Shown: piece after piece, positions 1-34,038 of the stretch
How positions within the stretch are numbered: the first letter of the stretch is position 1
How the letters are laid out: each line of letters opens with the position of its first letter
Virus record (IMG/VR): IMGVR_UViG_3300032236_000424
Coordinates: 1 to 34,038 of that record
Strand: one strand, 5' to 3'
Source: a virus
Lineage: Duplodnaviria; Caudoviricetes
DNA length: 34,038 nt
Position numbers and translations under genes: made by a program
The notes under the pieces: model-generated
What the model was told of the DNA's origin: nothing
The model's input: only the letters and a program-made list of their open reading frames with translations
Databases searched by the model: none

Positions 1-123
1 TCAACATACTGATTAACCAAAGTATTCTCAACAGCATGAGTGGATATTCTTTGAGGAATATAGCCATTCATTTGCATAATCTGGGATTGACCCCTGATAT
101 TTCTGGACAAATAGGCAAAGGAA
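1..123. repeat. Direct terminal repeat, copy 1 (circular assembly overlap)
   Basis: Bases 1-123 are identical to 33916-34038, and the gp10-like reading frame stays in frame across the join. Confidence 0.97.
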
Positions 124-1526
124 TTTCCTAGCCTAGCCACTGAAAATGGAGCAACAATGCCATGCTGAGTGGAAGTGCCAGGGATCCTCTGGAATGGGAA
201 AGGATAAGTCCCAGTATCTACCCAGACCTCTGAGGAAACCTCTCCCATTAAATAAACTTCCCTGTGATCCACAATCAGAGAAACTAAGTTATCTGGAGCA
301 CCATCTTTAGAGGCAAAACTAAGTGAATAGGAAATAGGGGAAAGTAGATTACTAGCCCCCCATTGTTGGGTATTTGGTTTGTTATAGACAAAATAATTGT
401 CCACTGTATCCACCACATCTGCACCAGTAAATGCCCCATCTGAGGATGGCAAAACAGTGAAATTGAGCACATACATGGTTTCAGAGGAGACTGTCTGAGT
501 ACCAGATAAAACATAAGATCCAGTGCCTCCAGAGCCTGTACCAAATGTCAGATTTAGGGTTAACCCTGTGCCAGATCCAGAATCAGTGACAGAAACTGGG
601 TTGCTAGGTGTGGAGGTATAGGCTCCAGGACTGGTCAAAGTCAGTCCAGTAACTGAGCCTCCAGAGCCTATTGTTGTGACTGTAAAGGTTGCAGGGCTTT
701 GCCCATAAACACCACCCACCACAGTGACCACATCATTGACAGAATATCCAGTGCCTGCAGTGGCTATGGTCTGGCTCAATACTGTCTGAGAGCCTAGAGC
801 TGTAATGACTGTGTTACTTGCCACACTAGTGCCTTGGACTGTCTGCCCAGGGTACAGAGTGCCAGAGGCAACAGCAGTTACATTGAGGGTAGATCCACTG
901 ATACTGGCTGTGATCTTGGCCGCCACAGCTGTAGAGTTCATCACCTCTGATGCCACTGACTGGCTAATATTTATGGTGTATGTTCCCACACCTCCAGAGC
1001 CAGTCCCCAAAGCTGTAATCACAGTTTCAGAAGTTACATTTAGACCAAATAAAGATTGCCCAATTCCAATAGTTCCATTGGTAACAGCTGTGACTGTTAG
1101 GGTTGTGCCAGAAACTGAGCCTGTAAACACAGCAGAACTAGGGCTAGAAATCCTCCAAGAATATCTGTAAACCCCATCCACAATGTAAGCATAAATCCCA
1201 TTATCTGTGATTCCAACTTGACCAGTGCTAGTCAATAACTGACCAATTAAGGTAGGAACCAGACTGGCAGTCATGGCATAAACATACTGACCACAGACTG
1301 CAATTAATTGATTTCCACCAGAAACAGCCCTTAAACCCCTGACTGGAGCCTGATTCTGAAATGCCACTAAAGAAGTCAGCCCAGGAGTTGGATAGAGTGC
1401 AACCACACCCCTAGTGCCTGGCTGTTTAAGTGGATCAATCTCTGGCCTCCAATTAATACACTCCTGATCATCTTGGTAGATAGATGCAGAAGAATAGGAT
1501 GGGCCAACAAAGCCAAATTCAGGCAT
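1..1526 (-). CDS. P22 gp10-like tail hub / DNA stabilisation protein, 5' part; continues at 33915..33303, about 712 aa in total
   Basis: Missing from the ORF track because it runs off the window. ATG at 1526 reads MPEFGFVGPSYSSASIYQDDQECINWRPEID, in frame with ORF 33303..34025 through the repeat. It follows the gp4-like gene. Confidence 0.85.
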   Translation of the reverse strand, partial: MPEFGFVGPSYSSASIYQDDQECINWRPEIDPLKQPGTRGVVALYPTPGLTSLVAFQNQAPVRGLRAVSGGNQLIAVCGQYVYAMTASLVPTLIGQLLTSTGQVGITDNGIYAYIVDGVYRYSWRISSPSSAVFTGSVSGTTLTVTAVTNGTIGIGQSLFGLNVTSETVITALGTGSGGVGTYTINISQSVASEVMNSTAVAAKITASISGSTLNVTAVASGTLYPGQTVQGTSVASNTVITALGSQTVLSQTIATAGTGYSVNDVVTVVGGVYGQSPATFTVTTIGSGGSVTGLTLTSPGAYTSTPSNPVSVTDSGSGTGLTLNLTFGTGSGGTGSYVLSGTQTVSSETMYVLNFTVLPSSDGAFTGADVVDTVDNYFVYNKPNTQQWGASNLLSPISYSLSFASKDGAPDNLVSLIVDHREVYLMGEVSSEVWVDTGTYPFPFQRIPGTSTQHGIVAPFSVARLGNSFAYLSRNIRGQSQIMQMNGYIPQRISTHAVENTLVNQYV

Positions 1527-1536
1527 TATTTAGTCC

Positions 1537-2511
1537 TCATCTAAAGAATCCACCGCTCAAGATCCACCCTGCATCTTTTTGTCTTCCAACCAATAAAGAG
1601 TCAGCATAGGTAGAAACTATTGGAGGTCTCATATTTGTTCTTTTGACTGTGGATTTGCCTTGGGCCGCATATTTCATAATCATGCTTATTTGGGTAGGAC
1701 TAGCCTTCCCATACATAGGCATTAGCCTCTCAGCCAAACACCACCTCAGAGCCATTGTGTAGCCTTGGGGTAAATTTACTGTGTCATTAATACTGGTGAA
1801 TTGCTGAAAGATTTGATCCACAAAAATATGCATCTCACCTTGGCTAGGATTAGGCCAGACATAGATGTTTCCCAGTGTCTCAGTTGGCTCATAATAGACT
1901 GCTTTAGGCCAAGGGCCATTTAAAGTCTTAAGCCCAATCATTTCATATTGCTCAATATTAAGCACAGAAACTGGATAATCCAAGCCTCCGTTTGTAATGG
2001 GTTGACCATTGGAATAGGTATTAATCCTGACAAAACATGAGTTCAGGGTCAGAGGCCTTTGGTAATAGGCATTAATGGTTTCACTGGAAATTGTGGGATT
2101 GCTTACACTTAGCTTGTAAGTTCCTGCCTCATTTATATTCCCACCTGCCCCTGTGAGCATTTGTGTGATTTTGGTTCCAGGGATAATATTAGTCCCAGAC
2201 AATGTCATGCCCAAGGAAATACCACCAGACTGGATGGATGTCACAGTCAAGGTAGTGCCTGAAATAGAGCCTGTAAATACAGCTCCAATTTGTCCCCCAG
2301 GGCCTATGGTGTACTGTGTCTGTCCTGAAACTAATGGGAAAATGATCTCATTCTTGTAAAAGACCATCATGCTCTCATTTGACCATTGGTCTAGCATGTC
2401 TTGGAGCATGTCATAAGCATCTTGGGCAGACTCAGGGGTTGGAGTCTCCCCTGCCTCCAAGGCTCCAATATCCTTTAATGCCCTAGAAATGATGTCAATA
2501 GCCTGAGTCAT
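1537..2511 (-). CDS. Head-tail adaptor (P22 gp4-like) with an inserted beta-rich module
   Basis: N-terminus [15 protein letters not shown]....QDA...L..MLDQW resembles gp4-type adaptors; lies directly upstream of the gp10-like gene. Confidence 0.7.
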
Positions 2512-2519
2512 GGGTCACC

Positions 2520-2834
2520 TTATATATTTGGAGTGAAAACTTGTGGTTTCCAAGGAGGAACAACAGATTTTGACTGCTCTAAGAGTGCTAATTGTTCCTC
2601 AAGCCTTGATTTTATTACACAAAGCCCATCTTTCATAGCATCTTTTTCTATCCACCCAACCACCATTTCCTCTGTAATTTCTGCAAAAGGAATCTTGTTC
2701 TCAGGGTCTAAAAAGTACCAATTGCCCTCAGTTTCAACTGTATTTTCGCCATCAGATAGGCTTACATGGTATTTAGCATGGGTGATGACTTCATTTTCTG
2801 CACTTAGTTCTGATATTGTCCATTTGTAAATCAT
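2520..2834 (-). CDS. Hypothetical tail-fibre-associated protein
   Basis: ORF; likely start MIYKWTI at 2834 overlaps the upstream stop (ATGA). Contains IPFAEITEEMVVGW and PPW motifs. Confidence 0.6.
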   Translation of the reverse strand: MIYKWTISELSAENEVITHAKYHVSLSDGENTVETEGNWYFLDPENKIPFAEITEEMVVGWIEKDAMKDGLCVIKSRLEEQLALLEQSKSVVPPWKPQVFTPNI

Positions 2835-3199
2835 ACTGGCACCCATGTTTTAGTTGTTTCATCCCAATTATAAAAATTATTATCTGTTGGATATGGAGTA
2901 GGAGGTGTCCAAGTCCAATTTGGAGAACTTATTGTCCAAGATGGATATGGTTGTGGAGGATAAAAAACATCATTAACTTGATCATAAATATAACCTATTC
3001 CTGCATAATTTCCACGCAAAGCAATTCCACCGTCAGGTTGCCCATTAGAATCATAATGAATTCCTCCCCTAGTGTTATATGAAGTTTGAATCCATTGACC
3101 AGGAGATGTATCTATAAAATGTCCATTGGTAAAAAAATCTGCTTCTGCAACAATAACAGTAATAACAATTCCATTATTAACTTTTGCATAATGACTCAT
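2831..3199 (-). CDS. Phage protein partnered with the glycine-rich tail protein
   Basis: Motifs MSHYAKV, WIQTSYN, RGNYAGIGY and PPQPYPSW; ATGA coupling to the upstream Gly-rich gene. Confidence 0.65.
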   Translation of the reverse strand: MSHYAKVNNGIVITVIVAEADFFTNGHFIDTSPGQWIQTSYNTRGGIHYDSNGQPDGGIALRGNYAGIGYIYDQVNDVFYPPQPYPSWTISSPNWTWTPPTPYPTDNNFYNWDETTKTWVPV

Positions 3200-4368
3200 C
3201 CTGTATAACTCCCTGATGAAGTATATTTAATAATAGTATTTGAACCTGAAGTAGTAACAGTCGGACTTCCTGTTGTAATTCCAGAATAACTATTTGTAGG
3301 AACTGAGATAATAACAACTCCTGAGCCACCGCTACCACCACTATATACAGTTGTTGCAGCACCTCCACCACCTCCACCACCAGTATTGACAGTTCCAGAT
3401 GTACCACTTCCTCCATTTGATCCCGCTCCACCACCACCATTTCCCCCAGTACCTGGAGTTCCTCCTGATACATAATTTCCACCGCCTCCACCACCAGCAT
3501 AATAAACAGCAGAACCAGTAATTGAAGAACTTAAACCAACTCCTCCATTTCCTGCTTGTGAACCAGAATAATTACCTCCTACTCCTCCAGCTCCTCCTCC
3601 TCCTCCCCCAGAATAATATGGGCCTCCTGAAGTAGCATTTCCCCCCGCATTTCCTTGCCCAGAAGTTCCAGAAGCTCCAGTAAGGTTGTTATTATCTCCA
3701 CCACCACCAGAACCGCCACTTGCAGGAGCAATTGATCCAGAACCAGAACCGCCTCCCCCTCCTCCTATTGCAGTTGTTAATCCAGTAAAAGATGAATTAG
3801 CACCACTTGAATTTGATCCTCCTTGACCGGAAGTTGTAGCTCCAGTTCCTCCACCTCCAACAGTAATTGTATAAACTGTTGATGGAGTAATTGTTGTTGT
3901 ACCAGATAGTAATCCTCCAGCTCCCCCCCCTCCTCCTTGAGCTATTCCACCACCTCCACCACCAGCTACAATTAAATAAGAAGCTGTATAAACTGCTGGG
4001 CCTGGAGTTGAAGCATTAAATCCAGAATATGGTATCCATCCTTGAGTTGTATCTATATAAACAAATGCAATAGACTCTCTATTTGTACTCAATAAAACAT
4101 TAACAGTTGATCCGTCTAATTTTGATCCATTAGGATTAATAATAAGGTTATTAGTTGCAAATGTTCCTGCATAATCTGTTAATTGAATGTAATTTCCTAC
4201 ACTAGGATTAAATGGAAAAGTTACTGTAATTGATCCAGATGTTGTGTTTATTGGGTATCCGTTGCCACTTATAGCAGAAAAACTTGTAGTTTGGACGGAT
4301 TGCCAAGCTAAACTAGAATTAGCCGTAGATAACAAATTATATTGAAAGGACTGCCCAGGAAAAGACAT
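3196..4368 (-). CDS. Glycine-rich domain tail / receptor-binding protein
   Basis: 390 aa with YLIVAGGGGGG...GGGGAGG...GGSGVVII polyglycine tracts after a fibre-type N-terminal domain. Confidence 0.7.
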   Translation of the reverse strand: MSFPGQSFQYNLLSTANSSLAWQSVQTTSFSAISGNGYPINTTSGSITVTFPFNPSVGNYIQLTDYAGTFATNNLIINPNGSKLDGSTVNVLLSTNRESIAFVYIDTTQGWIPYSGFNASTPGPAVYTASYLIVAGGGGGGIAQGGGGGAGGLLSGTTTITPSTVYTITVGGGGTGATTSGQGGSNSSGANSSFTGLTTAIGGGGGGSGSGSIAPASGGSGGGGDNNNLTGASGTSGQGNAGGNATSGGPYYSGGGGGGAGGVGGNYSGSQAGNGGVGLSSSITGSAVYYAGGGGGGNYVSGGTPGTGGNGGGGAGSNGGSGTSGTVNTGGGGGGGAATTVYSGGSGGSGVVIISVPTNSYSGITTGSPTVTTSGSNTIIKYTSSGSYTG

Positions 4369-4778
4369 TAGTATTGACCTCCAAAAGCCATTACGTTTAA
4401 GTCTGCACTAGTTGTACCCACTTGCTCAGAAATATACAACTGATAAGTTGGAGGTAAAACCAAGTTATTAAATGTAACTGTTGTTGTAAAAGCAGTTACT
4501 GTAGTACTTGGAGTTATAGCAGAAACTGGAATTTCAGCATAAAGATATGAAGTTGTTCCGTTATAAATCCAAATATCAACAATGTTAGCTACCGTTGTTC
4601 CTTTAGCAGTAACTGAAATAGCATCTACTTTTGTTCCGTTTGTGGATGTTGCAGTAAGTTGAACCAGTCCAGTTGTACCGGTAATGTTAGCCCTAGAAGT
4701 AATAGCAGTTGCAGATGTTAATGTCGCAATGCCTACTATGGGCGTTAATGGGAAAATAGGTGAAGTGTTTGATGCCAT
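4368..4778 (-). CDS. Hypothetical tail-associated beta-rich protein
   Basis: 136-aa Thr-rich ORF coupled to both neighbouring fibre genes. Confidence 0.6.
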   Translation of the reverse strand: MASNTSPIFPLTPIVGIATLTSATAITSRANITGTTGLVQLTATSTNGTKVDAISVTAKGTTVANIVDIWIYNGTTSYLYAEIPVSAITPSTTVTAFTTTVTFNNLVLPPTYQLYISEQVGTTSADLNVMAFGGQY

Positions 4779-7700
4779 TTAAATGTAGCCCCCAAAGTTT
4801 TGTTGTAAGGTAATGTTAAGCGCAGGAGGTGAAGAACCACCACTAGCATTTGCCCAAATAGGCGCTGCAGATGAGCCTTGGGAAGTTAATACCTGCCCAG
4901 TTGTTCCATATCCAGTTGTGCCAGTTGTTGCAGGGGTTGTACCCAGATTAGTTGACAATCCAATAGCACCACTAGCATTGATAACGTGAGCAGATTGACC
5001 AGTTGTACCCCATGCAAAATAATACTTAAAACCATTACCTGAACCAACAGTAATATCACCATCATGGCCAGAGAAATAAATACCATTGTTGATGCTAAAG
5101 AAATCTGCAAAAGTTCCACTAGCAGTATAAGTGCTTGAATTCATGCCAAACTCACCATAATAGGTTGAGTCTGTCCCTAAATTGTTGGAAATTACATAAT
5201 TTGTAGAAGCTCCTGCACTATTGCTTAAGTTTTGAATTACTAATTGATTGTAAGAACTAGCAGTTGTAGACCCAAAGGAAGCAATAGTATTAGAAGCATT
5301 AAAACTCAAAACTGGAGTTGTGCTTGTAACTGTATTGGCACTTAAAGTTGTAAAGTCCCCACTTGACCTAGTTGTCGCACCTATTGACCCATTAAATGTA
5401 CCCGCAAATCCTGTGGCAGTTAATATGCCTGTATTAGGCACAAAAGACAATTTAGTTGAGCTAGTTGTTTCCCCTGTAATAGTGCCTGTTGTGGCAGTAG
5501 TCAGGGTTGGGTAATAAGTAGAGCTAGAACTTGTATTGTCTGTGATTGTAATGCCAGAGACTGGAGCAGTTGCCCAAGTAGGAACTCCACCTGCCAATGT
5601 CAGAATGTAGCCATTTGTACTTGCCGCTAAAAATGTAGTTGCCCCAGACCCAGTCTGATAGGGTAATGAGCCATTTGCTCCCCCTGCAAGGTTTGTAGCA
5701 CTTGTGGCTAATGTGGATGTTGCTGAGTTTCCACCAATAGAAAGACTTGAGGCAGTTCCTGTGAGTCCTGTGCCTGCTCCACTAAACACAGTAGCAGTCA
5801 GAGTTCCTGTGCTTGGGTTGTATTGGTATTTTGTGGAACTGGTGTATTCAGTTGAGATACTTCCACTTGTCTGGTTAGCAAATAATGGGTATCTTGTGCC
5901 GTTGGTTGTCGTGTCATCCGTTACAGAAGCATAGCTAACTGGGGTTGCCCAAGTAGGTGCACTTGTGCCATTACTTTGTAAAAACTGTCCAGTTGTACCT
6001 ACAGCACTCAAAGCCAAAGCAGATGCTGTAGAGTAGGCAATAGCTCCTGCACTTGCAGTTAAATTGGCATTAGTTCCACCATAAGCTAAACCAATTAATG
6101 AGCCATTCCAAACTGAATTTGTAATATTTTGCCCTGCCATGCTAAGAGTATTTGTTCCCCAAGATACAAATCCTGTAGAACTATTTGCAGGAGGTAACAA
6201 ATAACCACCCCAATTCCCTGTTGCAGAACCATTTCCATAAGAATAGATATATCCTGCTGAACCAGATGGGCCTGAATAAACTGTACTTCCTGCACTATCT
6301 GTAACAGTTACAGTTCCAGTTGAATCATTATCAATAATGTATGCCATTCCTAATGGAATAGTTGTCAAATCAGGAAGTTTTATAGTTTGATTTGAAGACC
6401 CTGTAACGTGCTGATAATAACTAGATGCAATTGTTAAAGTAGTTGTTCCACCAGATGATGCAATGTTTGTAAGATTTGGGGCTTCATTATTCCAAGTAAT
6501 ATTAGCATTTGAATCTCTTAAAACTACAGAATTAGCTCCACTTGAACTAGTTACTCCAGTTCCTCCACTACTCACACCTAAAGTGCCTGCAAGAGTAACA
6601 GCTCCAGTTGTTGAAGTGCTTGGAGTCAACCCAGACAAAGAGGTCTGGAATGTAGATACAAAATTACCTGAAAGAGCAGATGTGGGAATGGTTGTGGAGG
6701 CAGTCATTGCTCCAGTTCCATTGCCATATACATAGCCTGTCAGGGTTGTTGCTCCAGTACCTCCATTGGATGCATTTAAAGTGCCTCCAAGAGTGATTGC
6801 TCCTGTGCTTGTAGTGTTAGGAGTAAATCCTGTAGTTCCACCAGAAAAGCTAAGAACACCAGTATTTGCTATTGTTACAGCTGTTGATCCATTGTAGCTA
6901 GTGCCTGAAAGTCCTGTGCCTATAGTCAAAGCATTTGGATTTACAGCAGTTATAGTGGCTGATCCACCCAAACTAATAGAACTTCCATTTATTGTGATTG
7001 AGCTATTTGTCAATCCAGAATTAGGAATAGTTGCATTAATTTGACTAGGTGCAATGCTAATTGATGTATTGGTTACAGATGAAACCTGACCTGATGCATT
7101 TGTAACAAATACTGGAACACTTGAGGCAGATCCATAAGTGCCTGCAGTGCCTACTGGAGTGATGCTGAACTGGTATCCAGACAAAGTCAGCCCAGTGCCT
7201 GCTGTATACACAGAGGAATTGCTGAACTGGCTGAATGTTATGGCAGTTGTTCCTAGTGTTCCATTTTGTGGAATAGTGGAAACCCAAGCAGATCCAGACT
7301 GACCACCATTTTCTACAAATAGAAAAGCAGAAACTAGCTCTGCATATGTGTCAGCATCAGTAGATCTAGTCCATCCACTTGCAGATGCTATATAAATACC
7401 ATTATTAGCCTGAGTTCCTTGGTTTTTAACCAAAACTCTATCACCAGACAATGTGGTGTAGCCATCAATGGTCTGCAATCCAGACAGTGTGATGTTGGTA
7501 GTTGTGGCAACTTGTGCAGGCTGTTTGAATGCCAAACCCTGTGCAACTGCATCCACATATGATTTATTGACCAAATCTGTAGGATTTACAGCTGTGGTGC
7601 TAATTGTTCCAGTGACTGTGCTGATATTGGTAAATGCTCCAGATGATGGAGTCACTAGCCCAATAGTTGTGCTGTTTATTGTGCTATTTGTAATGTTTAA

Positions 7701-8977: not shown

Positions 8978-9406
8978 TTAGCTGAAGTCATAGCCATAAA
9001 CATAGATGTCTACAGTACCAGTGTTGCCTGATGCTGTGGTCACGTTTGCATATAGATATTGGCCTTGATAAGCTGTGCTTGTAGCTGATGCATCTACATA
9101 CTGAACACCCAAGTTGGTTGTACAGTTAGAGGCAGTCACACTTCCAAAGATTGATGTACCAGATCCAGATGCAGGAGTAATGGTTGCCACCAAAGATGCG
9201 GCACTCACTGTAGTTCCATTATTGTTGGAATTGGTAATGATCAACTCTTTTGGCATGTATGTTGTAGAGTTGTTAACTTGGATTTGTGTTGTTGCTACAG
9301 CATTAGCATTTACACCCTTTGCCACAGCAATCAAGCGCAATGCTTGGTTTGTGGTGACATTACTTGGGTGTGCTGAGACTGTGGTTGCGGGTCCGGGATT
9401 ACTCAT
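8978..9406 (-). CDS. Putative capsid decoration / cement protein
   Basis: 142 aa directly after the coat gene and before the terminator; strong AAGGA RBS; C-terminal VDIYVYG strand. Confidence 0.6.
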   Translation of the reverse strand: MSNPGPATTVSAHPSNVTTNQALRLIAVAKGVNANAVATTQIQVNNSTTYMPKELIITNSNNNGTTVSAASLVATITPASGSGTSIFGSVTASNCTTNLGVQYVDASATSTAYQGQYLYANVTTASGNTGTVDIYVYGYDFS

Positions 9407-17252: not shown

Positions 17253-17280
17253 ATTATCCCAAATCACTATCTCTTGTCAA
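17253..17280 (-). promoter_or_regulatory. Sigma70-type promoter for the late operon
   Basis: TTGACA-16 bp-GATAAT with a TGn extension. Confidence 0.65.
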
Positions 17281-22707: not shown

Positions 22708-22710
22708 ATT

Positions 22711-24389: not shown

Positions 24390-24804
24390 TATGCAATACA
24401 AATTAATAAATGTGGAACAAGGCACAGCTTTAATCAAAAATTTGTGGCCTAAAATGAAAACAGCATTGGAATCAGGGAAAACCCTAGTTATGAATGTTGA
24501 GGAGGAACACAGATCAAATGACCAAAATGCCAAATTCCATGTGATCATTGCCCAAATTGCAAAAGAAACTCAGCATTTTGGAGCCAAGTGGGATGCAGAA
24601 TCTTGGAAGAGGTTTTTAATAGACCAATTTGCCACAGAAACAGGGTTACATGCCTCCAAAATAGCTCCCTCCTTAGATGGGCATAGACTTGTGCAATTAG
24701 GCCTCCAGAGTCGTAAATTCAGCAAAGACCAAGCTAGTCAATTTGTGGAGTGGTTAGAGGCTTGGTGTGCTGACAAAGGAATTGAGCTTGAAAGCACATC
24801 CTAA
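24382..24804 (+). CDS. ninB: NinB-like recombination protein
   Basis: RS.DQNAKFH, W..E.WK and SRKFSK.QASQFVEW..AW motifs. Confidence 0.8.
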   Translation: MIDMQYKLINVEQGTALIKNLWPKMKTALESGKTLVMNVEEEHRSNDQNAKFHVIIAQIAKETQHFGAKWDAESWKRFLIDQFATETGLHASKIAPSLDGHRLVQLGLQSRKFSKDQASQFVEWLEAWCADKGIELESTS

Positions 24805-25144
24805 AAGGCAATATGTCAGGAATGCCAAACTGTTAAATAACATCAGGTATTTGCACTGTCATGCTTGTGGCAATGATGATGAGACAGTAGTGGGTGCTCA
24901 CTCCAATAGCTCAAAATATGGCAAAGGAAGAGGCATTAAGGCTGACGACAACATGATAGCGGCCTTGTGTTGGGACTGCCATCATGCCCTAGATCAAGGC
25001 CATTATTTAAATAAAGAGGAAAAAGAGGAGTTCTGGATGGATGCTCATCTCAGGACTGTTTTTAGCCTCATCAAGGCTGAGTTATGGCCTCCAGATGTGC
25101 CAATCCCTCAGACCTATATTGACTACCAAAATAAGCTAAATTAG
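24767..25144 (+). CDS. DUF1364/YbcO-like zinc-binding nuclease-domain protein
   Basis: CHACG....VGAH....GKG.GIKADD...A.LC..CH..LD motif. Confidence 0.7.
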   Translation: MLTKELSLKAHPKRQYVRNAKLLNNIRYLHCHACGNDDETVVGAHSNSSKYGKGRGIKADDNMIAALCWDCHHALDQGHYLNKEEKEEFWMDAHLRTVFSLIKAELWPPDVPIPQTYIDYQNKLN

Positions 25145-25308
25145 CCTTTTTGTGGGTGAGCTTTTTCCATAGGAAGGTGCTCATGCTTTTTGAGCTTGTC
25201 CTCTAGTCTATGCAACTCATGCTCAGTTTTCTTTTCATGCTCCCTCAAAACTACATAATGAGCCTTGGGAGACTTGTATTCTTTGCCTTCAATTTTAAAG
25301 TTTTTCAT
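25141..25308 (-). CDS. Small His/Lys-rich protein
   Basis: Likely start MKNFK at 25308; last gene of the late operon. Confidence 0.55.
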   Translation of the reverse strand: MKNFKIEGKEYKSPKAHYVVLREHEKKTEHELHRLEDKLKKHEHLPMEKAHPQKG

Positions 25309-25753
25309 ATTCATCCTTAGAAAGTAAACCAATTTTGTATTTTTTGGCAGGGTTAAAAATAGTCAATTTCTGCATCCTCATCTCAGGAGCAAAGCTAATG
25401 TGAGTCCAAATTCCATACTCATGGATGAGTTGGTCAAATTTGATCCCTGCATCCTCAATAGCCTTGGCAACCATTAAAGGTGTCCCAAAGTCCTTGCATG
25501 TGAAGTCAATAGCCCAACCATCCATGTGGCTAGAAACCTTGGCTCCCCCAACTGCTTGGTTTACCTCTGGCAGTCTTAACCATGAATTAATATGAATAGA
25601 CTTACCCAACAAGGCTCTGACCTCTTCCATGCCTTGGGCTGACTTTTTCATGTTTTCTAGTTGTTGCTCACTTGGCTGATTACTGATACCAAGTCTGGAG
25701 GCAGTCTCAGAGTAAGTAGCCTCCTCAAGTGTGAAATGTTCACTCAGATTCAT
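25295..25753 (-). CDS. Endolysin, peptidase M15A family
   Basis: LSEHFTL.E, SSHM.G.AID and WTHIS zinc-ligand motifs. Confidence 0.9.
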   Translation of the reverse strand: MNLSEHFTLEEATYSETASRLGISNQPSEQQLENMKKSAQGMEEVRALLGKSIHINSWLRLPEVNQAVGGAKVSSHMDGWAIDFTCKDFGTPLMVAKAIEDAGIKFDQLIHEYGIWTHISFAPEMRMQKLTIFNPAKKYKIGLLSKDEYEKL

Positions 25754-25967
25754 TTTGAGCCTTTCCTATGTGAATTCCTGTGATTAGACCAAGGAATCCA
25801 CCACAGATGGATTGGAATGCAGGCCCAACAATATCAAACACCACTTTGTCATCCACAGTTGGATCAAGCACTGCCTGAACAAACATCCAAATCATTGAGG
25901 CAATCACTCCCATGAGGGAAAGAGTTGCAATCATAGTTACACAGCCTTTTAGTGTCCAGTTTTTCAT
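25740..25967 (-). CDS. Putative holin (2 TM)
   Basis: Two hydrophobic helices; adjacent to the endolysin. Confidence 0.55.
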   Translation of the reverse strand: MKNWTLKGCVTMIATLSLMGVIASMIWMFVQAVLDPTVDDKVVFDIVGPAFQSICGGFLGLITGIHIGKAQNESE

Positions 25968-26422
25968 TGGTTTCCTTTCATTATTTTATAAACATTATTG
26001 TATTGATCTATGCATGAATTTAGTTCATTTATGGCTTTGTCACCTGTTGTGGTGAGGCTGATAAGGAAGTTACTAGTTGATTGGTCAAGTTGGGTTCCCT
26101 TTTCTGAATCTGCATAGGAGGCATCTGAGGGCATTGATAAGCCACTTTTGGTGTGGATGAACAACCTGAGATTAGCACTAGCCAAATCAGACCTAAGTTG
26201 AGCTTGTTTTTGATCTGCATCTTTATTTATTTTTTGGAGTTGTTGATAAGAGCTTGAATTTTGCTCAACCATTCTTTGCTCATTTGCCCTAGCTTGCTCA
26301 TTAAGCCTTGCAACTTCAATTTGATTTCTTGCTGATTCATCATTTTCTCCTTTGTAGTAACCTGACCCAAATGCACCAAGTATTGACACAATCATTCCCA
26401 AAAGAACCCAAGGATTAAACAT
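25964..26422 (-). CDS. rz: Inner-membrane spanin (Rz-like)
   Basis: N-terminal TM, coiled coil and LNSCIDQY C-terminus; likely start 26422. Confidence 0.8.
   Translation of the reverse strand: MFNPWVLLGMIVSILGAFGSGYYKGENDESARNQIEVARLNEQARANEQRMVEQNSSSYQQLQKINKDADQKQAQLRSDLASANLRLFIHTKSGLSMPSDASYADSEKGTQLDQSTSNFLISLTTTGDKAINELNSCIDQYNNVYKIMKGNQ
26029..26220 (-). CDS. rz1: Outer-membrane spanin lipoprotein (Rz1-like), embedded in rz
   Basis: Signal peptide with lipobox LVLISG-C and a Pro-rich mature part, in an alternate frame inside rz. Confidence 0.75.
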   Translation of the reverse strand: MQIKNKLNLGLIWLVLISGCSSTPKVAYQCPQMPPMQIQKREPNLTNQLVTSLSASPQQVTKP

Positions 26423-26433
26423 TTCTGCCCCTT

Positions 26434-26691
26434 TTATATGCAATATTTTGGTGAATATCCAGTTTCTCTAAAAATCTTATAACATTCATATTCTTTGCTA
26501 TTTTCTCTGAATTTCTTTTTGAACTCAATATGCCAAGGCTCTTCCACTTTACTTCTTTGATAGTCTAAGTTGATGTAATACATCAGTCCAAAGATGGTGA
26601 GCATAACCACCAAGATTGCAATGCAGATTGCAATTCTAAGTGTCCATCTCTCTTTTCTTTCTCTTCTTTCTCTTTCTTCAACTTGATCCTT
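26434..26691 (-). CDS. -1 frame extension (85 aa: TM plus two-Cys domain) of the 27074 gene
   Basis: Open -1 frame from the A9 run (26690-26698) to TAA at 26434, which abuts the rz RBS. Confidence 0.7.
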   Translation of the reverse strand, partial: KDQVEERERRERKERWTLRIAICIAILVVMLTIFGLMYYINLDYQRSKVEEPWHIEFKKKFRENSKEYECYKIFRETGYSPKYCI

Positions 26692-27074
26692 TTTTTTTGA
26701 TCTTTGTCAAACTTGGCTTGATCCTTTTCTAGTTTTTCTCTTTCTTTTTGAAAGTCAGACCATAAAGCACCAAGCTCTGGAGGTGATTCATAAATCAAAA
26801 CTCTCCTTAAATCCTCCTCTGCCTGTTCTAGTTGTTTTCTCTTAATTACATTCTCAAGTGCTTGAGCCTTGATACTTTTGCCTTTAGGAGGATTCTTTTC
26901 TTTATGCTTGACCTCTGCAATAGCTTTTTCTTGATGGTCAAAAAAAGAGCCAAGTGAATCACTCAGCTCTGAATATATTCCAACTACTTCCTTTCCCACA
27001 CCCTTGGCCTCTTTATACAAAGCCACCCCTTGCTTAATAGCAGAGACAGCTGAGATAGCCAACATGAAAGGCAT
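26583..27074 (-). CDS. Coiled-coil protein; zero-frame product of a probable frameshift gene
   Basis: 163-aa ORF containing CAA AAA AAA AGG at codons 126-129. Confidence 0.7.
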   Translation of the reverse strand: MPFMLAISAVSAIKQGVALYKEAKGVGKEVVGIYSELSDSLGSFFDHQEKAIAEVKHKEKNPPKGKSIKAQALENVIKRKQLEQAEEDLRRVLIYESPPELGALWSDFQKEREKLEKDQAKFDKDQKKRIKLKKEKEEKEKRDGHLELQSALQSWWLCSPSLD

Positions 27075-27301
27075 TATTTGAGAGTAAAGTAGTGTGAAAG
27101 AAAGCCTACCAGACTAGAAATGCCTGAGACCACCATCATGCCAACCCAAAAACCTCCTTTAGATTTATCAGCCATAGAAACTAGCTTTTCAATAGAGTTT
27201 TCAAGTTTGTCTATTTTCTTTTCCATAGAATCAAACTTTTTTTCATAGTCCTCTACCTTTTGCCAAAGGACTCCATATTTAACTAAATCAATTTCAGCCA
27301 T
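27074..27301 (-). CDS. Small coiled-coil plus C-terminal TM protein (holin- or XhlA-like)
   Basis: Heptad region followed by GGFWVGMMVVSGISSLVGFL. Confidence 0.6.
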   Translation of the reverse strand: MAEIDLVKYGVLWQKVEDYEKKFDSMEKKIDKLENSIEKLVSMADKSKGGFWVGMMVVSGISSLVGFLSHYFTLK

Positions 27302-27303
27302 GA

Positions 27304-28050
27304 TTAACTTTTCATGATGTATGCAAGAGCATAGTATGGAGGCATATTTGCACCAGATCCACTTACACCAGTTGTTTGGTTGCTTGTGGCTACTGTAATG
27401 CCAGTTGATGATGTTCCAGTTGTGCCAGTTGTAGCACTACCAAAAGTAACTTGTGATCCAGAATTAGTGCCACCATAACCATTTGTTGTTTGAGCTTGTG
27501 GGCTGAATGTGTGGTTGTGTCCTGGGTCTGTAACAGTTGAAGTAGCTGTGTGAGTATGAGAAACAATTACTGCATCTGTAGATCCACCAGTTTGGCCTAC
27601 AGAGTAGGTGTTGCCTGCACCCAATACAAAGCTATTTCTCAGATCTGGTGTGCCATTTTGACCATTACACAAATACCATCCAGATGGTACAGATCCCACA
27701 GCTCCTGACCAAATAGCAATTAATCCACTTGGAACACTTGCTGATGTGGTTGGTGCAACTCCAATAATTCCATATAAATTATCATAAGTCTGGATAGTGT
27801 TATAGCTTGAGTCTTGGAGCACAAACTTATAGTTATATCCATAGGTTAACCAGATCTCAGTCTGAGGTCTGCCATCAGTACCCAAGACAATAGGATTGGT
27901 GTTTGGATAGGCTCCTGCATTATCAGAATAAGTAGCCTGTGGTGTGGTTGACCCTGCCTGATAGGTATAGATCAACCCTCCTGATAATGGAAGTCCTGTA
28001 GTGGTAAAGAATTGAAATCCATTACCTATTGGGGCAAGATTGACACTCAT
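27304..28050 (-). CDS. Short tail fibre: virion-binding N-domain plus collar domain
   Basis: QFF...G.PLSGG.IYTY.AG.TTP N-terminus; VPSGWYLCNG.NGTPDLR..F collar motif; NMPPYYALAYIMK end. Confidence 0.8.
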   Translation of the reverse strand: MSVNLAPIGNGFQFFTTTGLPLSGGLIYTYQAGSTTPQATYSDNAGAYPNTNPIVLGTDGRPQTEIWLTYGYNYKFVLQDSSYNTIQTYDNLYGIIGVAPTTSASVPSGLIAIWSGAVGSVPSGWYLCNGQNGTPDLRNSFVLGAGNTYSVGQTGGSTDAVIVSHTHTATSTVTDPGHNHTFSPQAQTTNGYGGTNSGSQVTFGSATTGTTGTSSTGITVATSNQTTGVSGSGANMPPYYALAYIMKS

Positions 28051-30299
28051 TTTCCTATGTCCTTAATATTGTTTATTCCAGCGGTTCTGGAAATAGTTTT
28101 TGCTAATTGCTCTTGTTGAAGTCTTTTTTGCTCTTCCAATGCAAGTCTTTCATTTCTTGCCCTAAGAATTGGCTTGGTGATTGATGTTACTAATCCAAGT
28201 TTTCCACCAGTTGCAAAATTTCCTCCTGCCTCTGCAACTCCAAGAGCCGCCTCTTTGATTGCTTTCTTAGCCGCTTCCCTTTCAGATGTAATTGCTGTCT
28301 GAGATACATTAGCATTTCCACCCTCTGCATTTCTAACATGCTCAGTAAATCTAGCAACATCACCAATGTTTCTAAGTCTGTTGGCGGCTTCTGAACCCAC
28401 AGCTAAATCAAGTTTTCCACCTAAATTATTTAATTCTTTATTTAAAGCCTTTTGTGATATTGCTCCCACTTCACCAGATTCAGTGTTAACCACCCCTGCA
28501 TTAGACTTTAAATGATCAACTAAACCAGAAATCAATTCATGATGAGATTTAGATCCTTCACCAACCAAATTAATTAATCTATTAATATCAGATTGAGATG
28601 CTTTATCACTTGTAACCAATGTTTTAAAAAAGTTTTTAGCATCAGGATGAGGTATTAATTTTTCAATTTCCTCTGGTGTTCTTGGGTCATCATAAGCCAG
28701 AGCATATGCTTTGTTGTAATTAGGATTTGGCTTGTTTTTTGTTGGAGGTGTAATTAATTGTTTTTGTGCTCTAAATAATGATCTAGCTTGATCTGCAACA
28801 GCCTTTTGCTCTGCATTTTCACCTTTAAGTGGTAAATCCTCTAATGCATCTCTAATGTGACCAAGAGCATTTCTTACATTTCCATCTGTACTTGCTCTGC
28901 TTGCTGTAGCCAATTGAGTTCTAAGATTCTCAAATTGGTTGAAATTCATATCCCTTTCAGGAGGAGTTGTGCCAATTACTTCACCAGTTTTAGGATCTAA
29001 TTTTTCTTGTGGTAAATATCTATTTAATTTCTTTTGCCAAACTTCTGGCAAATGATCAATATCATCAGTTTCTACTGTCAGCTTTTTCATTGCATTTTTT
29101 GCAAATGCCTCTGAATCAATAGGAAACTTACCACCACCTAAGTCTTCAAGACTTTTATAAGCATCTTTAATTGCTTGAGTGTCTTTATCTACTTTATTTA
29201 TCTTAATATCTTCAAGAATATTGTTTGCTTTATCTTCCATGCTTTTGCCAGAATGTTCAGGAGCAAACTCTTCTTTAATATTATTAAATCCCTTAATTAA
29301 CATGGGATTTCTTTGTTCAAATTTTTCTCTCAATAATTCATTACCAGGCAATGCTTTGTGATTGTATTCATCAGACATTTTTGTAATATCTTGCAAAGCC
29401 TGACCCTCTGTAGGTACAAAATTAGGGTCAACTTTAGAAAATTTATTATGTATTTCTAATGACTTTAGATCTTGAGGTGTGTAACTAGTAATTGGTTTAT
29501 TAGCTAATTGAGCTTGTAAAGTTGGATGGGCATTGGCTAATTCTGCTTTAACTGCTGTTTCAGGCACAGTAGCCGCGGCTCCTCCACTTTGTAATCCAGT
29601 TGTTTCTGGTGCAACTGATGTAACTGGTGCAATTGTAGGTGCTTTTCTAGCCTCGAATTGGCTTGTTAAATCAGATCTAAGACCTCTAATATCTGAAGCT
29701 ACACCTCTAACTGTTGAACCCAGTGGAGCTACATACTTAGCACCAAATGGAGCCGCCAAACCTAAAGCATTAATTCCTTGTTGGACATCTTGAACAGGAA
29801 TATGTAGATTTTTTGCAATAACTTCTGCACCCTCATTAATATGAGATGCAATGTAATTATTAATTGGATCTGTAAGTCTACTTTTATATCCTTCAGTTCC
29901 TAATATTTTGCTTGGCAAATTAGAAATTGGCTCACTTACATTTTCAGCAGTTTTTGATGCTTGTTCAGCAGATTGACCAAAAAGTCTAGACCCAAGATAA
30001 GTACCTAAATTGGCTACAGCTCCTGGCAAGTTTGCAGGAATATCTGCCAAATTAGCTATTTCAGGAACTATTTTTGAATAATCAATTGGCTTTTGTTGAG
30101 CAATAGCTTGCTTACTCCTAACAGGCCTAATTCCAATGTAAGGCTTTGTTAAATCAATTTCTTGAGGTTTATTTGTAGGAGTTACATTTTGCAAAAACTC
30201 ATTAATATCATGCTCTTGAACTTTTGATTTTGGTTCAGGCAAAGAAGTAAGAAATTGATTAATATCATATTCTTTTGGCTGTGATGTGGACATGACCAT
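28047..30299 (-). CDS. Large DNA ejection (internal virion) protein, gp16 position
   Basis: About 750-aa helical protein, third of three genes after the gp10-like gene; GGAGG RBS before the ATG at 30299. Confidence 0.65.
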   Translation of the reverse strand: MVMSTSQPKEYDINQFLTSLPEPKSKVQEHDINEFLQNVTPTNKPQEIDLTKPYIGIRPVRSKQAIAQQKPIDYSKIVPEIANLADIPANLPGAVANLGTYLGSRLFGQSAEQASKTAENVSEPISNLPSKILGTEGYKSRLTDPINNYIASHINEGAEVIAKNLHIPVQDVQQGINALGLAAPFGAKYVAPLGSTVRGVASDIRGLRSDLTSQFEARKAPTIAPVTSVAPETTGLQSGGAAATVPETAVKAELANAHPTLQAQLANKPITSYTPQDLKSLEIHNKFSKVDPNFVPTEGQALQDITKMSDEYNHKALPGNELLREKFEQRNPMLIKGFNNIKEEFAPEHSGKSMEDKANNILEDIKINKVDKDTQAIKDAYKSLEDLGGGKFPIDSEAFAKNAMKKLTVETDDIDHLPEVWQKKLNRYLPQEKLDPKTGEVIGTTPPERDMNFNQFENLRTQLATASRASTDGNVRNALGHIRDALEDLPLKGENAEQKAVADQARSLFRAQKQLITPPTKNKPNPNYNKAYALAYDDPRTPEEIEKLIPHPDAKNFFKTLVTSDKASQSDINRLINLVGEGSKSHHELISGLVDHLKSNAGVVNTESGEVGAISQKALNKELNNLGGKLDLAVGSEAANRLRNIGDVARFTEHVRNAEGGNANVSQTAITSEREAAKKAIKEAALGVAEAGGNFATGGKLGLVTSITKPILRARNERLALEEQKRLQQEQLAKTISRTAGINNIKDIGK

Positions 30300-31853: not shown

Positions 31854-32738
31854 TTAATACCCTCCAGGATTGAATGTGCCACTACCCAAGGCTCCACCAG
31901 AGTTCACATTAAAAGTTCCACTTCCCAAAGAATTTAAAGAATTAGCTGATGGGGAATATGTAGGAGCTACATAAGGAGTTTGGAATCCTGTCATATCAGT
32001 TGGAGTAATGCTTGGGTTTTGATTTAATAAGGAATAAAGCATTGCATTATTTCCTAAATTATTAAGTGCACCACCATAAGCATTAGCTACACCCATTTGA
32101 CCTTGACCTAATGCAGATGCTCCACCAATTCCAAGTGCTCCTTGATTGGTTGCAGTGGTTGTGCCTGCAGTGTTAACTTGATTTTGACCAACTTGTCCAA
32201 GCCCTGCTTGACTTGCCAACATGCCATAAATATTGTTTCTTTGATTCTGGTAATTAGTAAATGCATTTTGATATTGGTTGCCTGCCAAGCCTTGTGTGTA
32301 GTTTTGTAGGCCTGCCAAAGCATTACCACCTATTAATCCACCACCTACATTATTAGATGCCTGTAAAGCATTTTGGCCTTGTTGAAGCACAAATCCATAA
32401 TTAGGAGCAATCTGAGAATTTAGATCTGCCGCACCAAATTGATTTGTCAAATATCCTGATCCAACTCCAGTGCCTGCAGGATTTCCATTTTGATCAACTA
32501 TGCCATAAGTTCCAGAGCCTAAAGAACCAATTCTATTAATTGCATTGTAGCCAAGCTGTCTAACTGGGGCTTGTTGACTATTAATAGTGTTGAAGTTTTG
32601 TTGTTGAAGTGCTTGGGCATTAGCCGCTGCATTTGCTTGTAAATTAGCCGCGTTATTAGCCGCGTTCGCAGACATCCCTGCCCCTACAAGGCCAAGACCT
32701 CCTGCAATTGCCATTCCTAACCCTGCTCCAATTGGCAT
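31854..32738 (-). CDS. DNA ejection / pilot protein, gp7-like
   Basis: Hydrophobic G/A-rich N-terminus followed by A/N/Q-rich helices; PNYGF..QQG..A motif. Confidence 0.75.
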   Translation of the reverse strand: MPIGAGLGMAIAGGLGLVGAGMSANAANNAANLQANAAANAQALQQQNFNTINSQQAPVRQLGYNAINRIGSLGSGTYGIVDQNGNPAGTGVGSGYLTNQFGAADLNSQIAPNYGFVLQQGQNALQASNNVGGGLIGGNALAGLQNYTQGLAGNQYQNAFTNYQNQRNNIYGMLASQAGLGQVGQNQVNTAGTTTATNQGALGIGGASALGQGQMGVANAYGGALNNLGNNAMLYSLLNQNPSITPTDMTGFQTPYVAPTYSPSANSLNSLGSGTFNVNSGGALGSGTFNPGGY

Positions 32739-32740
32739 AA

Positions 32741-33091
32741 TTAACCCCTTTTAATCAAAACATCATCCACTTTTTCTGGATCTTTTTCAGCAGTGGCATG
32801 AATACAAAACCAAACTGATTCCTCTAAAGCCTGTATTGAATGATGCACCCCTGATTTTATTTCAATACAGGCAGGAGCACCATACATTTTTTCAGAATCA
32901 TCAGTCCTAACAATTACCTTTCCTTTGGCCAAAATACTCAAGTGGCTGAAATTATGGACATGCTGAACTATAAAAAAATCCTTTGGAATTGTCATTTCCT
33001 TGGCATAGAGGCCATCAGAAAAGTTATGGACAATCTTTGGATCAAAGTCCATTCTGCCCTCTAGAGTCTTGAATATGTCAGCATGATTCAT
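32741..33091 (-). CDS. Cupin-fold protein
   Basis: H.FSDGLYAKE..IP, HVHNFSHLSIL.KG, G.HH and WFCIH motifs. Confidence 0.7.
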   Translation of the reverse strand: MNHADIFKTLEGRMDFDPKIVHNFSDGLYAKEMTIPKDFFIVQHVHNFSHLSILAKGKVIVRTDDSEKMYGAPACIEIKSGVHHSIQALEESVWFCIHATAEKDPEKVDDVLIKRG

Positions 33092-33306
33092 TGGTTGTAA
33101 TAAGGTACTTTGTAGTTTTTGCCATTAACTGTGACATTCATGAACCCTGCAGGAGCAGTTGGCAAAATAGCTCCTCCCTTTGTAGCAGTCCCTGAAGATG
33201 TGAAATTTAACAAATTCTGAAAATATTGTAGCCAAGCCCTTTGTGGTCTTTTTGTGGATTGGTCAATAAACTCAGTCTGTGGGTATCCCTGAATCTGTGT
33301 GGTCAT
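33088..33306 (-). CDS. Small virion-associated hypothetical protein
   Basis: R.W..YF..L and LP..PAGF....NG..YKVPYY motifs; ATGA-coupled. Confidence 0.6.
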   Translation of the reverse strand: MTTQIQGYPQTEFIDQSTKRPQRAWLQYFQNLLNFTSSGTATKGGAILPTAPAGFMNVTVNGKNYKVPYYNQ

Positions 33307-34038
33307 GACTCACCCTCACTTGCTTTTAGGTTAGAGGAAATGATCACAGCAAAGACTGGATCAGTCACAGAAACCTCAAAAACCCTGTCCCTAGACCATC
33401 CAAGCCTTCTCCAAATAGCTCTGTTGCTGTATTTTCCTTCCTGTCCAATAGTCACCCAATATTCCCTAGACCATGTGGATCCACCATCATTTGACCATCT
33501 GAGCATGGCTTGAGGATAGGTTGTAACTGATCCAGTGGTAATTGGCAAAGACACTCCAGTGGTTCCAACTCCAGGCTGAAACTGGATCTGCAACTCATGG
33601 AAATACTGCCTTTGGAAGTCTGTAACCAAATGAGGTGCTCTTCTGACCCTCCTGATTGGCTGTCCATTGTCTGTGTAATTATTGGGATCTAGCATGTAGA
33701 GCTGACCATTTTGCCAATCTCCAACCACCACCATATTTTGAAAAACAGCAGAACAGTTGCCTCTGTGCCTATGGAATGTGTTTGTATTGTCTCTCCAAAG
33801 CCATTTATGCCACATTCCTGTGCTGATGTCATATGCCCAAGTTAAGTCAATAGTTGGGAAATTAATTACATAAACCTCATGGCCTTCTAGCTGATATGTC
33901 CATGAAACAGCATCCTCAACATACTGATTAACCAAAGTATTCTCAACAGCATGAGTGGATATTCTTTGAGGAATATAGCCATTCATTTGCATAATCTGGG
34001 ATTGACCCCTGATATTTCTGGACAAATAGGCAAAGGAA
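33303..34038 (-). CDS. gp10-like protein, 3' part (joined to 1..1526)
   Basis: RISTHAVE, YQLEGHE.Y and L.WSNDGG.TW...G..G.Y..R..WRRLG..RDRVF motifs. Confidence 0.88.
   Translation of the reverse strand, partial: SFAYLSRNIRGQSQIMQMNGYIPQRISTHAVENTLVNQYVEDAVSWTYQLEGHEVYVINFPTIDLTWAYDISTGMWHKWLWRDNTNTFHRHRGNCSAVFQNMVVVGDWQNGQLYMLDPNNYTDNGQPIRRVRRAPHLVTDFQRQYFHELQIQFQPGVGTTGVSLPITTGSVTTYPQAMLRWSNDGGSTWSREYWVTIGQEGKYSNRAIWRRLGWSRDRVFEVSVTDPVFAVIISSNLKASEGES
33916..34038. repeat. Direct terminal repeat, copy 2
   Basis: Identical to bases 1-123. Confidence 0.97.

What the first reader, a model, noticed from the sequence alone, without database searches (positions are those of the whole stretch)
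1..34038. Genome-wide, roughly ten-fold CG dinucleotide depletion
Seen: by eye there are about 130 CG in 34 kb, against roughly 1,300 expected if GC is near 40%. I found none in about 21750-24710 or 24965-28080. Arg is almost always AGA/AGG, while GC, GGCC, GATC and CCWGG are common. Inference: strong selection or mutation acting on CG itself, such as a host CG-directed restriction or sensing system, several CG-containing R-M sites, or CG methylation followed by deamination. The phage encodes no recognisable methyltransferase, so the driver is probably the host.
Basis: partly seen in the sequence, partly recalled or inferred. Interest (0 to 1): 0.72.

Follow-up and report, generated by a model that had tools for sequence, protein, structure and literature searches.

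The report
Phage purges CG, shields with it
This phage and its close relatives have lost about nine tenths of the two-letter DNA word CG, yet they keep a CG pressed against likely restriction-enzyme sites they cannot recode, which likely means their CG pairs carry a protective chemical mark, probably written by the host bacterium.

Summary
Confirmed: 133 CG against 1,366 expected (rho 0.10), equally low at all three codon positions. The window is a whole P22-like phage genome. The loss marks one clade; sister phages have rho 0.67-0.86. It is selection, not deamination: new CGs appear at about 0.1x the background rate, there is no TG/CA excess at silent sites, and Arg moved to AGR with no loss of Arg. 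New here: surviving restriction-type sites touch a CG. In the subclade that purges GGCC, 59 of 66 survivors overlap CG, and Trp-Pro (which forces GGCC) uses CCG in 20 of 21 cases, against 0 of 22 in the window's subclade and 0 of 8 in CG-normal purgers. So CG likely carries a blocking mark. Best guess (0.4): a host CG-marking enzyme plus a nuclease that cuts the rare unmarked CG. Host, enzyme and chemistry are unidentified. This scan noted CG-poor phages before, and once GATC survivors touching CG, on other DNA.

The parts
1..34038 (.). Whole circularly permuted P22-like phage genome (123-nt end overlap), rho(CG) 0.10
21745..24711 (.). CG-free tract over the replication genes and the TAGT cassette
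24962..28081 (.). CG-free tract over lysis genes and tail collar gene
9438..10691 (-). Major capsid gene; keeps 29 CG (23 per kb). 18 clade relatives keep 19-39 per kb. Inferred: codon selection for high expression offsets the CG cost
2831..4778 (-). Three-gene tail module absent from 14 related records; 21 CG, the only bare GCWGC (3356) and 5 of 6 CCAGC. Inferred recent import, not yet purged
   Evidence: one contig of run X1 spans 1901-12300 without a difference (X1 may be the source of the window)
4863..4868 (.). Surviving GCWGC with a CG overlapping its end
32625..32630 (.). Surviving GCWGC with a CG overlapping its end
9390..9395 (.). Surviving GGWCC with a CG overlapping its end
10506..10511 (.). 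Surviving GGWCC with a CG overlapping its end
28078..28083 (.). Only CCAGC outside the imported module; overlaps a CG
22711..22953 (+). 80-aa partner gene upstream of TAGT; no family hit
22943..23800 (+). TAGT-family glycosyltransferase in a swappable slot before NinB; cassette has 0 CG in 1,090 nt; candidate but less likely writer of the mark
   Evidence: PF20691 E 3e-45, phrog_842 E 1e-54
17626..17814 (-). 62-aa ORF found only in CG-poor loci of this phage family (29 loci) but also in an unrelated phage group without the shield
17254..17424 (-). 56-aa hydrophobic ORF found only in CG-poor loci (32 loci)

Best explanation
This phage clade is under direct selection against every CG in its DNA while its surviving restriction-type sites overlap a CG, most likely because the host marks nearly all CG pairs chemically and likely cuts the few that escape marking. 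Shown: a clade-specific, context-flat purge of CG that behaves as selection of modest strength (population-scaled S about 3), and strong epistasis in which a CG makes an overlapping GGCC, GCWGC or GGWCC site tolerable. Inferred: the CG carries a covalent mark that blocks those nucleases; the writer is host-encoded; each CG has a small chance of staying unmarked during fast phage replication, so the cost per site is small and additive, which lets about 130 CGs stay where they pay their way (shielding, Ala-Ala, capsid codons, fresh imports). A mark other than 5-methylcytosine, such as N4-methylcytosine, would fit the absent deamination signal; that is a guess.
For: Selection: in 80 close pairs from 26 genes CG gain is x0.10 (bootstrap 0.04-0.20) and loss x2.0 (1.1-4.0); mutation-only fit lnL -2479.6, selection -2431.9, free -2430.2; normal relatives gain x0.79, loss x1.07. 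TG excess 0.78 (0.69-0.95) and CA excess 1.05 (0.88-1.37) against 1.37-1.49 predicted by deamination. Relatives' CGN Arg aligns with AGR in 610 of 821 listed comparisons, Gln 9, His 4; Arg totals unchanged. Shield: GGCC survivors overlap CG in 10/10, 20/21, 16/21 and 13/14 cases in G004, G342, G343, G006, with about 5% expected; seven control words give ratios 0.80-1.25. With groups fixed by the portal tree, Trp-Pro uses CCG in 20 of 21 cases in that subclade (other Pro 14 of 1,431), 0 of 22 in the window's subclade, 0 of 8 in normal GGCC purgers (p 2e-11 and 2e-6). All four bases occur 5' of the shielding CG. Normal relatives that purge these words show no such excess: GGCC 68/302, GCWGC 0/12, GGWCC 26/74, about a third expected. 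Writer not the cassette: G342 lacks TAGT yet holds CG-overlapped GGCC at eight places where G004 has GGWCC (seven bare), and its ABC/GNAT gene has one GGCC and one GCWGC, both overlapped. No enzyme-sized window gene is confined to the clade.
Against: No host, writer or nuclease was identified. In the candidate genus C5 and N4/N6 methyltransferases are patchy (54 of 241; 22 of 121) and none could be assigned to CG. I know no bacterial two-base restriction system (recalled), and a review passage reports no prevalence of CpG methylation by R-M systems (PMC11282364). The shield is not total: distinct survivor contexts overlap CG in 24/31 (GGCC), 22/42 (GCWGC), 13/25 (GGWCC) cases; GGATCC 0/10; window GGYRCC 0/2 and CCAGC 1/6. 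The nearest TAGT relatives sit in a second, independently CG-poor lineage, which favours the phage-writer rival. The data do not tell an unmarked-CG cutter from a marked-CG cutter. Genomes within a subclade share sites, so counts are not independent: 9 distinct Trp-Pro columns.
Confidence: 0.4

Rival explanations
1. The phage writes the mark. TAGT with its 80-aa partner, or the interchangeable ABC/GNAT or C5-methyltransferase cassettes, would modify CG as a counter-defence against a host activity that attacks CG; incomplete protection leaves a cost per CG.
For: The window-type TAGT cassette has 0 CG in 1,090 nt in both subclades, while replacements are CG-richer (rho 0.23-0.28, 0.72, 0.79), so it looks long resident. 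Its sister TAGT branch (support 0.94) lies in phages with rho 0.29-0.46 whose nearest backbones have rho 1.0-1.2, and one of these shows overlap at GATC (15/30) and GGWCC (5/10). Solitary TAGTs of unknown substrate are common (288 of 753 genomes, PMC13216743). A sugar would block more enzymes than a methyl group (recalled).
Against: TAGT was not found in three near-complete CG-poor records (G005, G341, G342) that keep the purge and the shield. TAGT occurs in CG-normal relatives (G024, rho 0.78; most of the 80 TAGT loci), as do C5-methyltransferases and distant ABC/GNAT genes. The phage has no gene for a hydroxylated acceptor base. Two origins are not a statistical test.
Confidence: 0.22
2. A host enzyme marks CG and the mark itself is the target: a modification-dependent nuclease or glycosylase (Mrr, McrA, McrBC, MspJI type) in other strains of the host range cuts marked CG.
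For: Explains mark and cost together. Enzymes that read methylated CG exist (MspJI and PsuGI passages; Mrr and McrA seen only as reference titles; PMC12707154).
Against: With 125-255 marked sites left per genome such an enzyme should still cut, so a tenfold reduction buys little unless the chance per site is tiny. Only weak avoidance of type IV sites was seen in phages (PMC6286503). CG-rich imports persist.
Confidence: 0.17
3. An orphan host enzyme marks CG and no nuclease is involved; the mark slows phage replication, transcription or packaging a little at each site.
For: Gives a small, additive, context-flat cost and the shield with one enzyme.
Against: An intrinsic cost should also thin CG in the host; no CG-poor chromosome was found among the genomes screened, although the true host may not be among them.
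Confidence: 0.1
4. Host CG 5-methylation with hypermutation to TG/CA, helped by mutational load, drives the loss; 5mC gives the shield.
For: Genome-wide rho(TG) is 1.36. A CpG methyltransferase accompanies CpG loss in Mycoplasma penetrans (cited in PMC11282364). A mixture of very fast turnover and a protected class could mimic the pair test.
Against: No TG or CA excess at fourfold sites (the CA interval reaches 1.37, just under the prediction). In two long shared segments transitions make up 37 of 74 and 27 of 41 single-base CG differences, like background (57%, 62%) (direction of change unknown). CG-normal relatives also reach rho(TG) 1.2-1.4.
Confidence: 0.06
5. The phage mirrors a CG-poor host, or CG loss is the sum of several four-base restriction sites; the overlaps reflect longer recognition sites.
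For: Phage CpG content tends to resemble the host's (PMC11282364). The clade avoids many sites.
Against: No screened chromosome comes near rho 0.1 (lowest stretches 0.40 on 3.5 kb, 0.58-0.66 on longer ones). Non-palindromic contexts are as depleted as palindromic ones. Three different nucleases would all need the same flank exclusion, in this clade only.
Confidence: 0.05

Closest known systems
Type II restriction-site avoidance in non-temperate dsDNA phages (Rusinov et al. 2018, PMC6286503; passages seen)
   Same: Silent purge of short words by selection; the window shows it for GCWGC, GGWCC, CCAGC and 6-bp palindromes.
   Different: The word is two bases, the purge stops at about 10%, and the word rescues other sites. 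The passages searched hold no mention of dinucleotides or CpG (0 occurrences).
CpG loss with a CG-specific C5 methyltransferase (M.MpeI, M.SssI of Mollicutes; seen only as cited in PMC11282364, original not held)
   Same: A mark on CG and deep CG loss.
   Different: Here the loss is in a phage, by selection, with no deamination signal, and no CG-poor host was found.
Blocking of restriction enzymes by overlapping CpG methylation (AvaII, TseI types; recalled from enzyme catalogues, no call)
   Same: A CG touching the end of a site stops cutting.
   Different: Known as a laboratory effect; here it appears to steer codon choice. HaeIII is recalled as insensitive to such 5mC, which would point to another enzyme or another mark.
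TET/C5-methyltransferase-linked GT-A glycosyltransferases and T2/T6 TAGT (bioRxiv 10.1101/2023.12.21.572611, PMC13216743; passages seen)
   Same: Same Pfam family; post-replicative marks set in a two-base context (GpC there).
   Different: No oxygenase, methyltransferase or hydroxymethylase in this genome; context would be CG; the gene is dispensable for the pattern.
N4-methylcytosine writers of bacterial origin acting at CpG (N4CMT, PMC8885841; passages seen)
   Same: A CG-biased mark without a deamination signature.
   Different: Described in rotifers and a liverwort; no such enzyme was located in a candidate host here.

Membership tests
Type II restriction-site avoidance | Word depleted by selection, not mutation | tested here: met
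Type II restriction-site avoidance | Word is a 4-8 bp site of a known orthodox type II system | tested here: not met
   All ten NCGN classes depleted to 0.015-0.13 of normal; the unit is CG
Type II restriction-site avoidance | Cognate nuclease and methyltransferase in the host | not testable with these tools
   Host unproven
CpG methylation-deamination loss (M.MpeI/M.SssI type) | Raised CG-to-TG/CA loss with normal gain | tested here: not met
   gain x0.10, loss x2.0
CpG methylation-deamination loss (M.MpeI/M.SssI type) | TG/CA excess at silent sites | tested here: not met
   0.78 and 1.05 against 1.37-1.49
CpG methylation-deamination loss (M.MpeI/M.SssI type) | CG-specific C5 methyltransferase in phage or host | tested here: inconclusive
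   None in the window; 54 of 241 candidate-host genomes have a C5 enzyme of unknown specificity; the G341 enzyme is nearest HhaI/HaeIII in PDB, all weak
Shielding by an overlapping DNA mark | Purged sites survive where the marked word overlaps, in any flank | tested here: met
Shielding by an overlapping DNA mark | No such survival in relatives without the trait | tested here: met
Shielding by an overlapping DNA mark | Chemical mark seen on the DNA | not testable with these tools
   Only assembled contigs are held
TAGT/TET hypermodification pathway | GT-A glycosyltransferase of PF20691 | tested here: met
TAGT/TET hypermodification pathway | Enzyme making a hydroxylated acceptor base | tested here: not met
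   No hit among 60 proteins in PHROGs and Pfam or 12 unexplained window proteins in NCBIfam
TAGT/TET hypermodification pathway | Gene required for the trait | tested here: not met
   Not found in G005, G341, G342 (95-100% complete); time since loss unknown
Type IV modification-dependent restriction as driver | Reader of marked CG in host strains | not tested
   No host to search
Host-resembling CpG content | Host chromosome equally CG-poor | tested here: inconclusive
   Not found in 301, 401 and 241 genomes; host unproven

The most novel reading that the evidence does not exclude
A freshwater betaproteobacterium runs a two-base self/non-self system: it marks every CG, probably not as 5-methylcytosine, and destroys DNA with unmarked CG. 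Its phages answer by shedding nine tenths of their CGs and by borrowing the host's mark as a shield, writing CCG after Trp to cover a GGCC site they cannot recode. This would be a CpG-based immunity in bacteria, and codon choice in phage genomes would be a way to read unknown DNA marks from sequence alone.
Probability: 0.35. Interest if true: 0.9.

Novelty: new variant of a known kind. Interest (0 to 1): 0.7.

Why it matters
Why some phages are nearly free of CG is unexplained; a 2024 paper says the reasons for phage CpG bias are unknown and doubts a defence cause (PMC11282364). This clade gives sister lineages with and without the trait, a measured selection signal, and an internal readout (CG-overlapped survivors, Trp-Pro codons) that predicts a modified base at CG. 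One long-read kinetic run or LC-MS analysis tests it. A CG-specific writer that leaves no deamination trace, or a nuclease for unmarked CG, would also be a useful reagent.

Tried and rejected
TAGT as sole cause: absent from 3 CG-poor records and present in CG-normal ones; kept as a rival. Sum of four-base cutters and a CCGC/GCGG-specific shield: unforced GCGG is as depleted as other contexts (41/1,351). A footprint effect of neighbouring CGs: only CGCGGC is free (21/47); other CGCG 4/52; mild clustering beyond that. A clade-specific enzyme: only two small ORFs; the 62-aa one has 29 homologues, no family, Atlas score 0.81 and also occurs in four loci of another phage group with rho 0.37-0.64 and no shield. 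Host search: 19 genome-collection loci for the capsid gene are scattered over unrelated bins, with integrated copies only in Burkholderia-group genomes at 54-58% identity; portal hits in 10 of 296 family genomes were all distant, 28-49% identity; the TerL search gave no host name; no cultured close relative (best 65% portal identity). The capsid tree was a quick, unfinished tree and leaves three normal rows unresolved with the clade. L498 (normal locus, TerL half identical to a CG-poor one) may be a chimera and was not used. The 20 runs were mostly small shares; only X1 and X2 were laid. TAGT has no PDB match. A second TAGT scan added no close lineage. The methylome paper of one candidate-host species holds no CpG mention (PMC7522526). 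Ancestral states were not available, so all rate tests are unpolarised. No complex or fold prediction was run.
Full report
What the window is. The window is one whole record with a 123-nt end overlap. It encodes a P22-like coat, portal, terminase, Erf, YqaJ exonuclease, Cro-like and NinB proteins; no integrase, methyltransferase or tRNA was found. A relative about 93% alike over 7.6-13.8 kb lies in run X2, labelled lake water.

The observation. 133 CG against 1,366 expected, rho 0.10; 0.08, 0.10 and 0.11 at the three codon positions; 60 against 530 +/- 17 in a synonymous shuffle; 5 CG in 1,316 non-coding bases; 368 of 388 Arg codons are AGR. The two CG-free tracts are as stated. The genome also purges GCWGC, GGWCC, CCAGC and several 6-bp palindromes, and GGCC and CCWGG are about half of expectation.

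A clade trait. Of 80 capsid-gene loci, 10 have rho below 0.3 and 70 have 0.62-1.14. In a portal tree of 63 rows (30 near-duplicates dropped) the 23 CG-poor rows form one clade with support 1.0, sister to G008. Nine clade records have rho 0.10-0.24 and six outside records 0.67-0.86. In the TerL tree 22 of 24 CG-poor rows group together; the other two carry a 5' half imported from a normal phage, with 16 CG against 1 in the native half. So the two kinds exchange genes, and CG-rich imports are tolerated for a time.

Selection, not deamination. Aligned to eleven near relatives, their CGN Arg codons face AGR in 610 of 821 listed comparisons, Lys in 71, Gln in 9 and His in 4, and Arg totals match (comparisons are not independent). 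In 80 disjoint close pairs from 26 genes, C/T differences before G are 0.11 of background per T; a two-state fit gives gain x0.10 and loss x2.0, a mutation-only model is 49 log units worse than the free fit and a selection model with S = 3.0 is 1.7 worse; normal relatives give x0.79 and x1.07. A mixture of extreme turnover and protected sites could mimic this, so I tested composition: relative to near relatives the TG excess is 0.78 (0.69-0.95) and the CA excess 1.05 (0.88-1.37), where deamination predicts 1.37-1.49. All ten NCGN classes are depleted, so the unit is CG. The cost per site is modest: Ala-Ala uses a CG codon first in 22 of 25 cases, avoiding GCWGC, against 5 of 174 for Ala before other G-starting codons, and the capsid gene keeps 19-39 CG per kb in 18 clade rows against 28-50 in ten near relatives.

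The shield. In the window 5 of the 11 surviving GCWGC, GGWCC and CCAGC sites overlap a CG; the other 6 lie in a three-gene module that 14 related records lack, and outside it all 5 do (chance 2e-8, but the module was set aside after the fact). Two GGYRCC and three GGATCC sites in the window do not overlap. The second subclade purges GGCC, and 59 of its 66 survivors in four records overlap a CG, about 5% being expected; seven control words give 0.80-1.25 and GCNNGC 1.63. Counting distinct contexts, 24 of 31 GGCC, 22 of 42 GCWGC and 13 of 25 GGWCC overlap, with all four bases 5' of the CG for GGCC; normal relatives that purge the same words give 68 of 302, 0 of 12 and 26 of 74 with a third expected. 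Trp-Pro forces GGCC. With groups set by the portal tree, it is written with CCG in 20 of 21 cases in the GGCC-purging subclade (other Pro 14 of 1,431), 0 of 22 in the window's subclade and 0 of 8 in two normal purgers, at the same homologous places. A first version of this test (9 of 9 columns) classed loci by bare GGCC and is partly circular. An extra CG is also free in CGCGGC (21 of 47, 14 of 24 columns) but not in other CGCG (4 of 52). Under additive costs a site plus a CG would be the first thing lost, so I infer that CG in these phages carries a mark that blocks the nucleases. That these words are nuclease targets is inferred from their purge; the enzyme names are recalled.

Who writes it. 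The slot before NinB holds the window-type TAGT in G000, G004, G033, G034 and G951, an ABC/GNAT gene in G005 and G342, a C5 methyltransferase in G341 and another TAGT in G343. Core-gene CG counts do not differ with the cassette, except that the capsid gene has 24-29 CG with TAGT and 36-47 without (two against four records). G342 keeps and extends the shield without TAGT. Only two small window ORFs are confined to the clade. This points to the host. Against it, the TAGT cassette looks ancestral, and its sister branch lies in a second CG-poor lineage biased against CCG, with some overlap signal.

The host. Unproven. Integrated capsid relatives lie in Burkholderia-group genomes. In a genus of 241 small Burkholderiaceae genomes (size and GC suggest Polynucleobacter; recalled, no call names it) 8 hold window-like DNA: two bins hold contigs of near relatives (Erf 88%, Hc3 68%), which binning alone could cause, and one chromosome has a prophage sharing only 100 residues of the initiator. 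No genome came near the phage's CG loss in screens of 301, 401 and 241 genomes (stretches checked; the 401 include one unpublished genome, G632, as a tally row). Methyltransferases there are patchy and of unknown specificity.

Mechanism. A cutter that always acted on CG would gain the phage nothing from 1,300 to 130 sites. The cost must be a small chance per site. With the shield, the simplest reading is a host writer that marks almost every CG and a nuclease for the few missed (0.4). A phage writer (0.22), a reader of the mark (0.17), an intrinsic cost (0.10), deamination (0.06) and host mimicry (0.05) follow.

Literature. Ten searches; those aimed at phage CG loss or shielding returned no description of either effect in their listings. 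The library lacks most subscription papers. I saw passages only of PMC11282364, PMC6286503, PMC12707154, PMC7522526, PMC13216743, PMC8885841 and bioRxiv 10.1101/2023.12.21.572611; PMC3538198 was not held. Earlier notes of this scan report CG-poor crAss-like and other phages and one phage whose GATC survivors touch CG; I read the latter before forming the shield idea and did not check its genome.

Verdict. Real, clade-specific, selected, and carrying a testable sign of an unknown CG mark. New variant of a known kind; interest 0.7.

Noticed in passing
L088, L089, L091, L092, L095, L087/G035, L098, L099, L103, L108, L109, L360, L361: Other phages avoid CCG/CGG (0.05-0.15 of expectation) far more than ACG (0.2-0.6); all but L360/L361 came from the TAGT scan, so the link to TAGT is biased by the search.
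   Followed up: partly
window 22711-23800 and the same slot in G005, G342, G341, G343, G008, G344: One slot before NinB holds four or five unrelated putative DNA-modifying genes; the G008 methyltransferase seems split by a nuclease-like insertion; the 240-aa G344 gene has no family hit.
   Followed up: partly
L321/L216/L236 TerL gene: 5' half of the terminase gene imported from a CG-normal phage near L045, identical in contigs whose native halves differ by 1-12%.
   Followed up: yes
L228:1-2296, L330 and L331 first 1 kb, L317:11727-15379 against L340, L318:266-2826 against L010: Further 85-97% identical segments shared between CG-poor and CG-normal phages; direction unknown.
   Followed up: partly
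window 21658-21669: A non-coding CGCG just upstream of the replication initiator gene, beside the likely ribosome-binding site, is kept in G000, G004 and G033.
   Followed up: no
L243-L253, L177, L174, G344: A sister lineage purges GCSGC but not GCWGC, the reverse of the window; G008, G345, G016, G017 purge CGCG. Each lineage shows a different set of purged words.
   Followed up: partly
window 16294-16554 and 16551-16811 (-): A GroES-like gene (PF00166, E 6e-7) beside a small Cys-rich protein with a weak HiPIP-like hit.
   Followed up: no
L610-L613: An unrelated phage group with several glycosyltransferase-like genes shares the 62-aa ORF and two lysis-region genes with the window.
   Followed up: partly
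window 1-34038: CCC/GGG is low (581 against 781) and TA is 0.70 of expectation.
   Followed up: no
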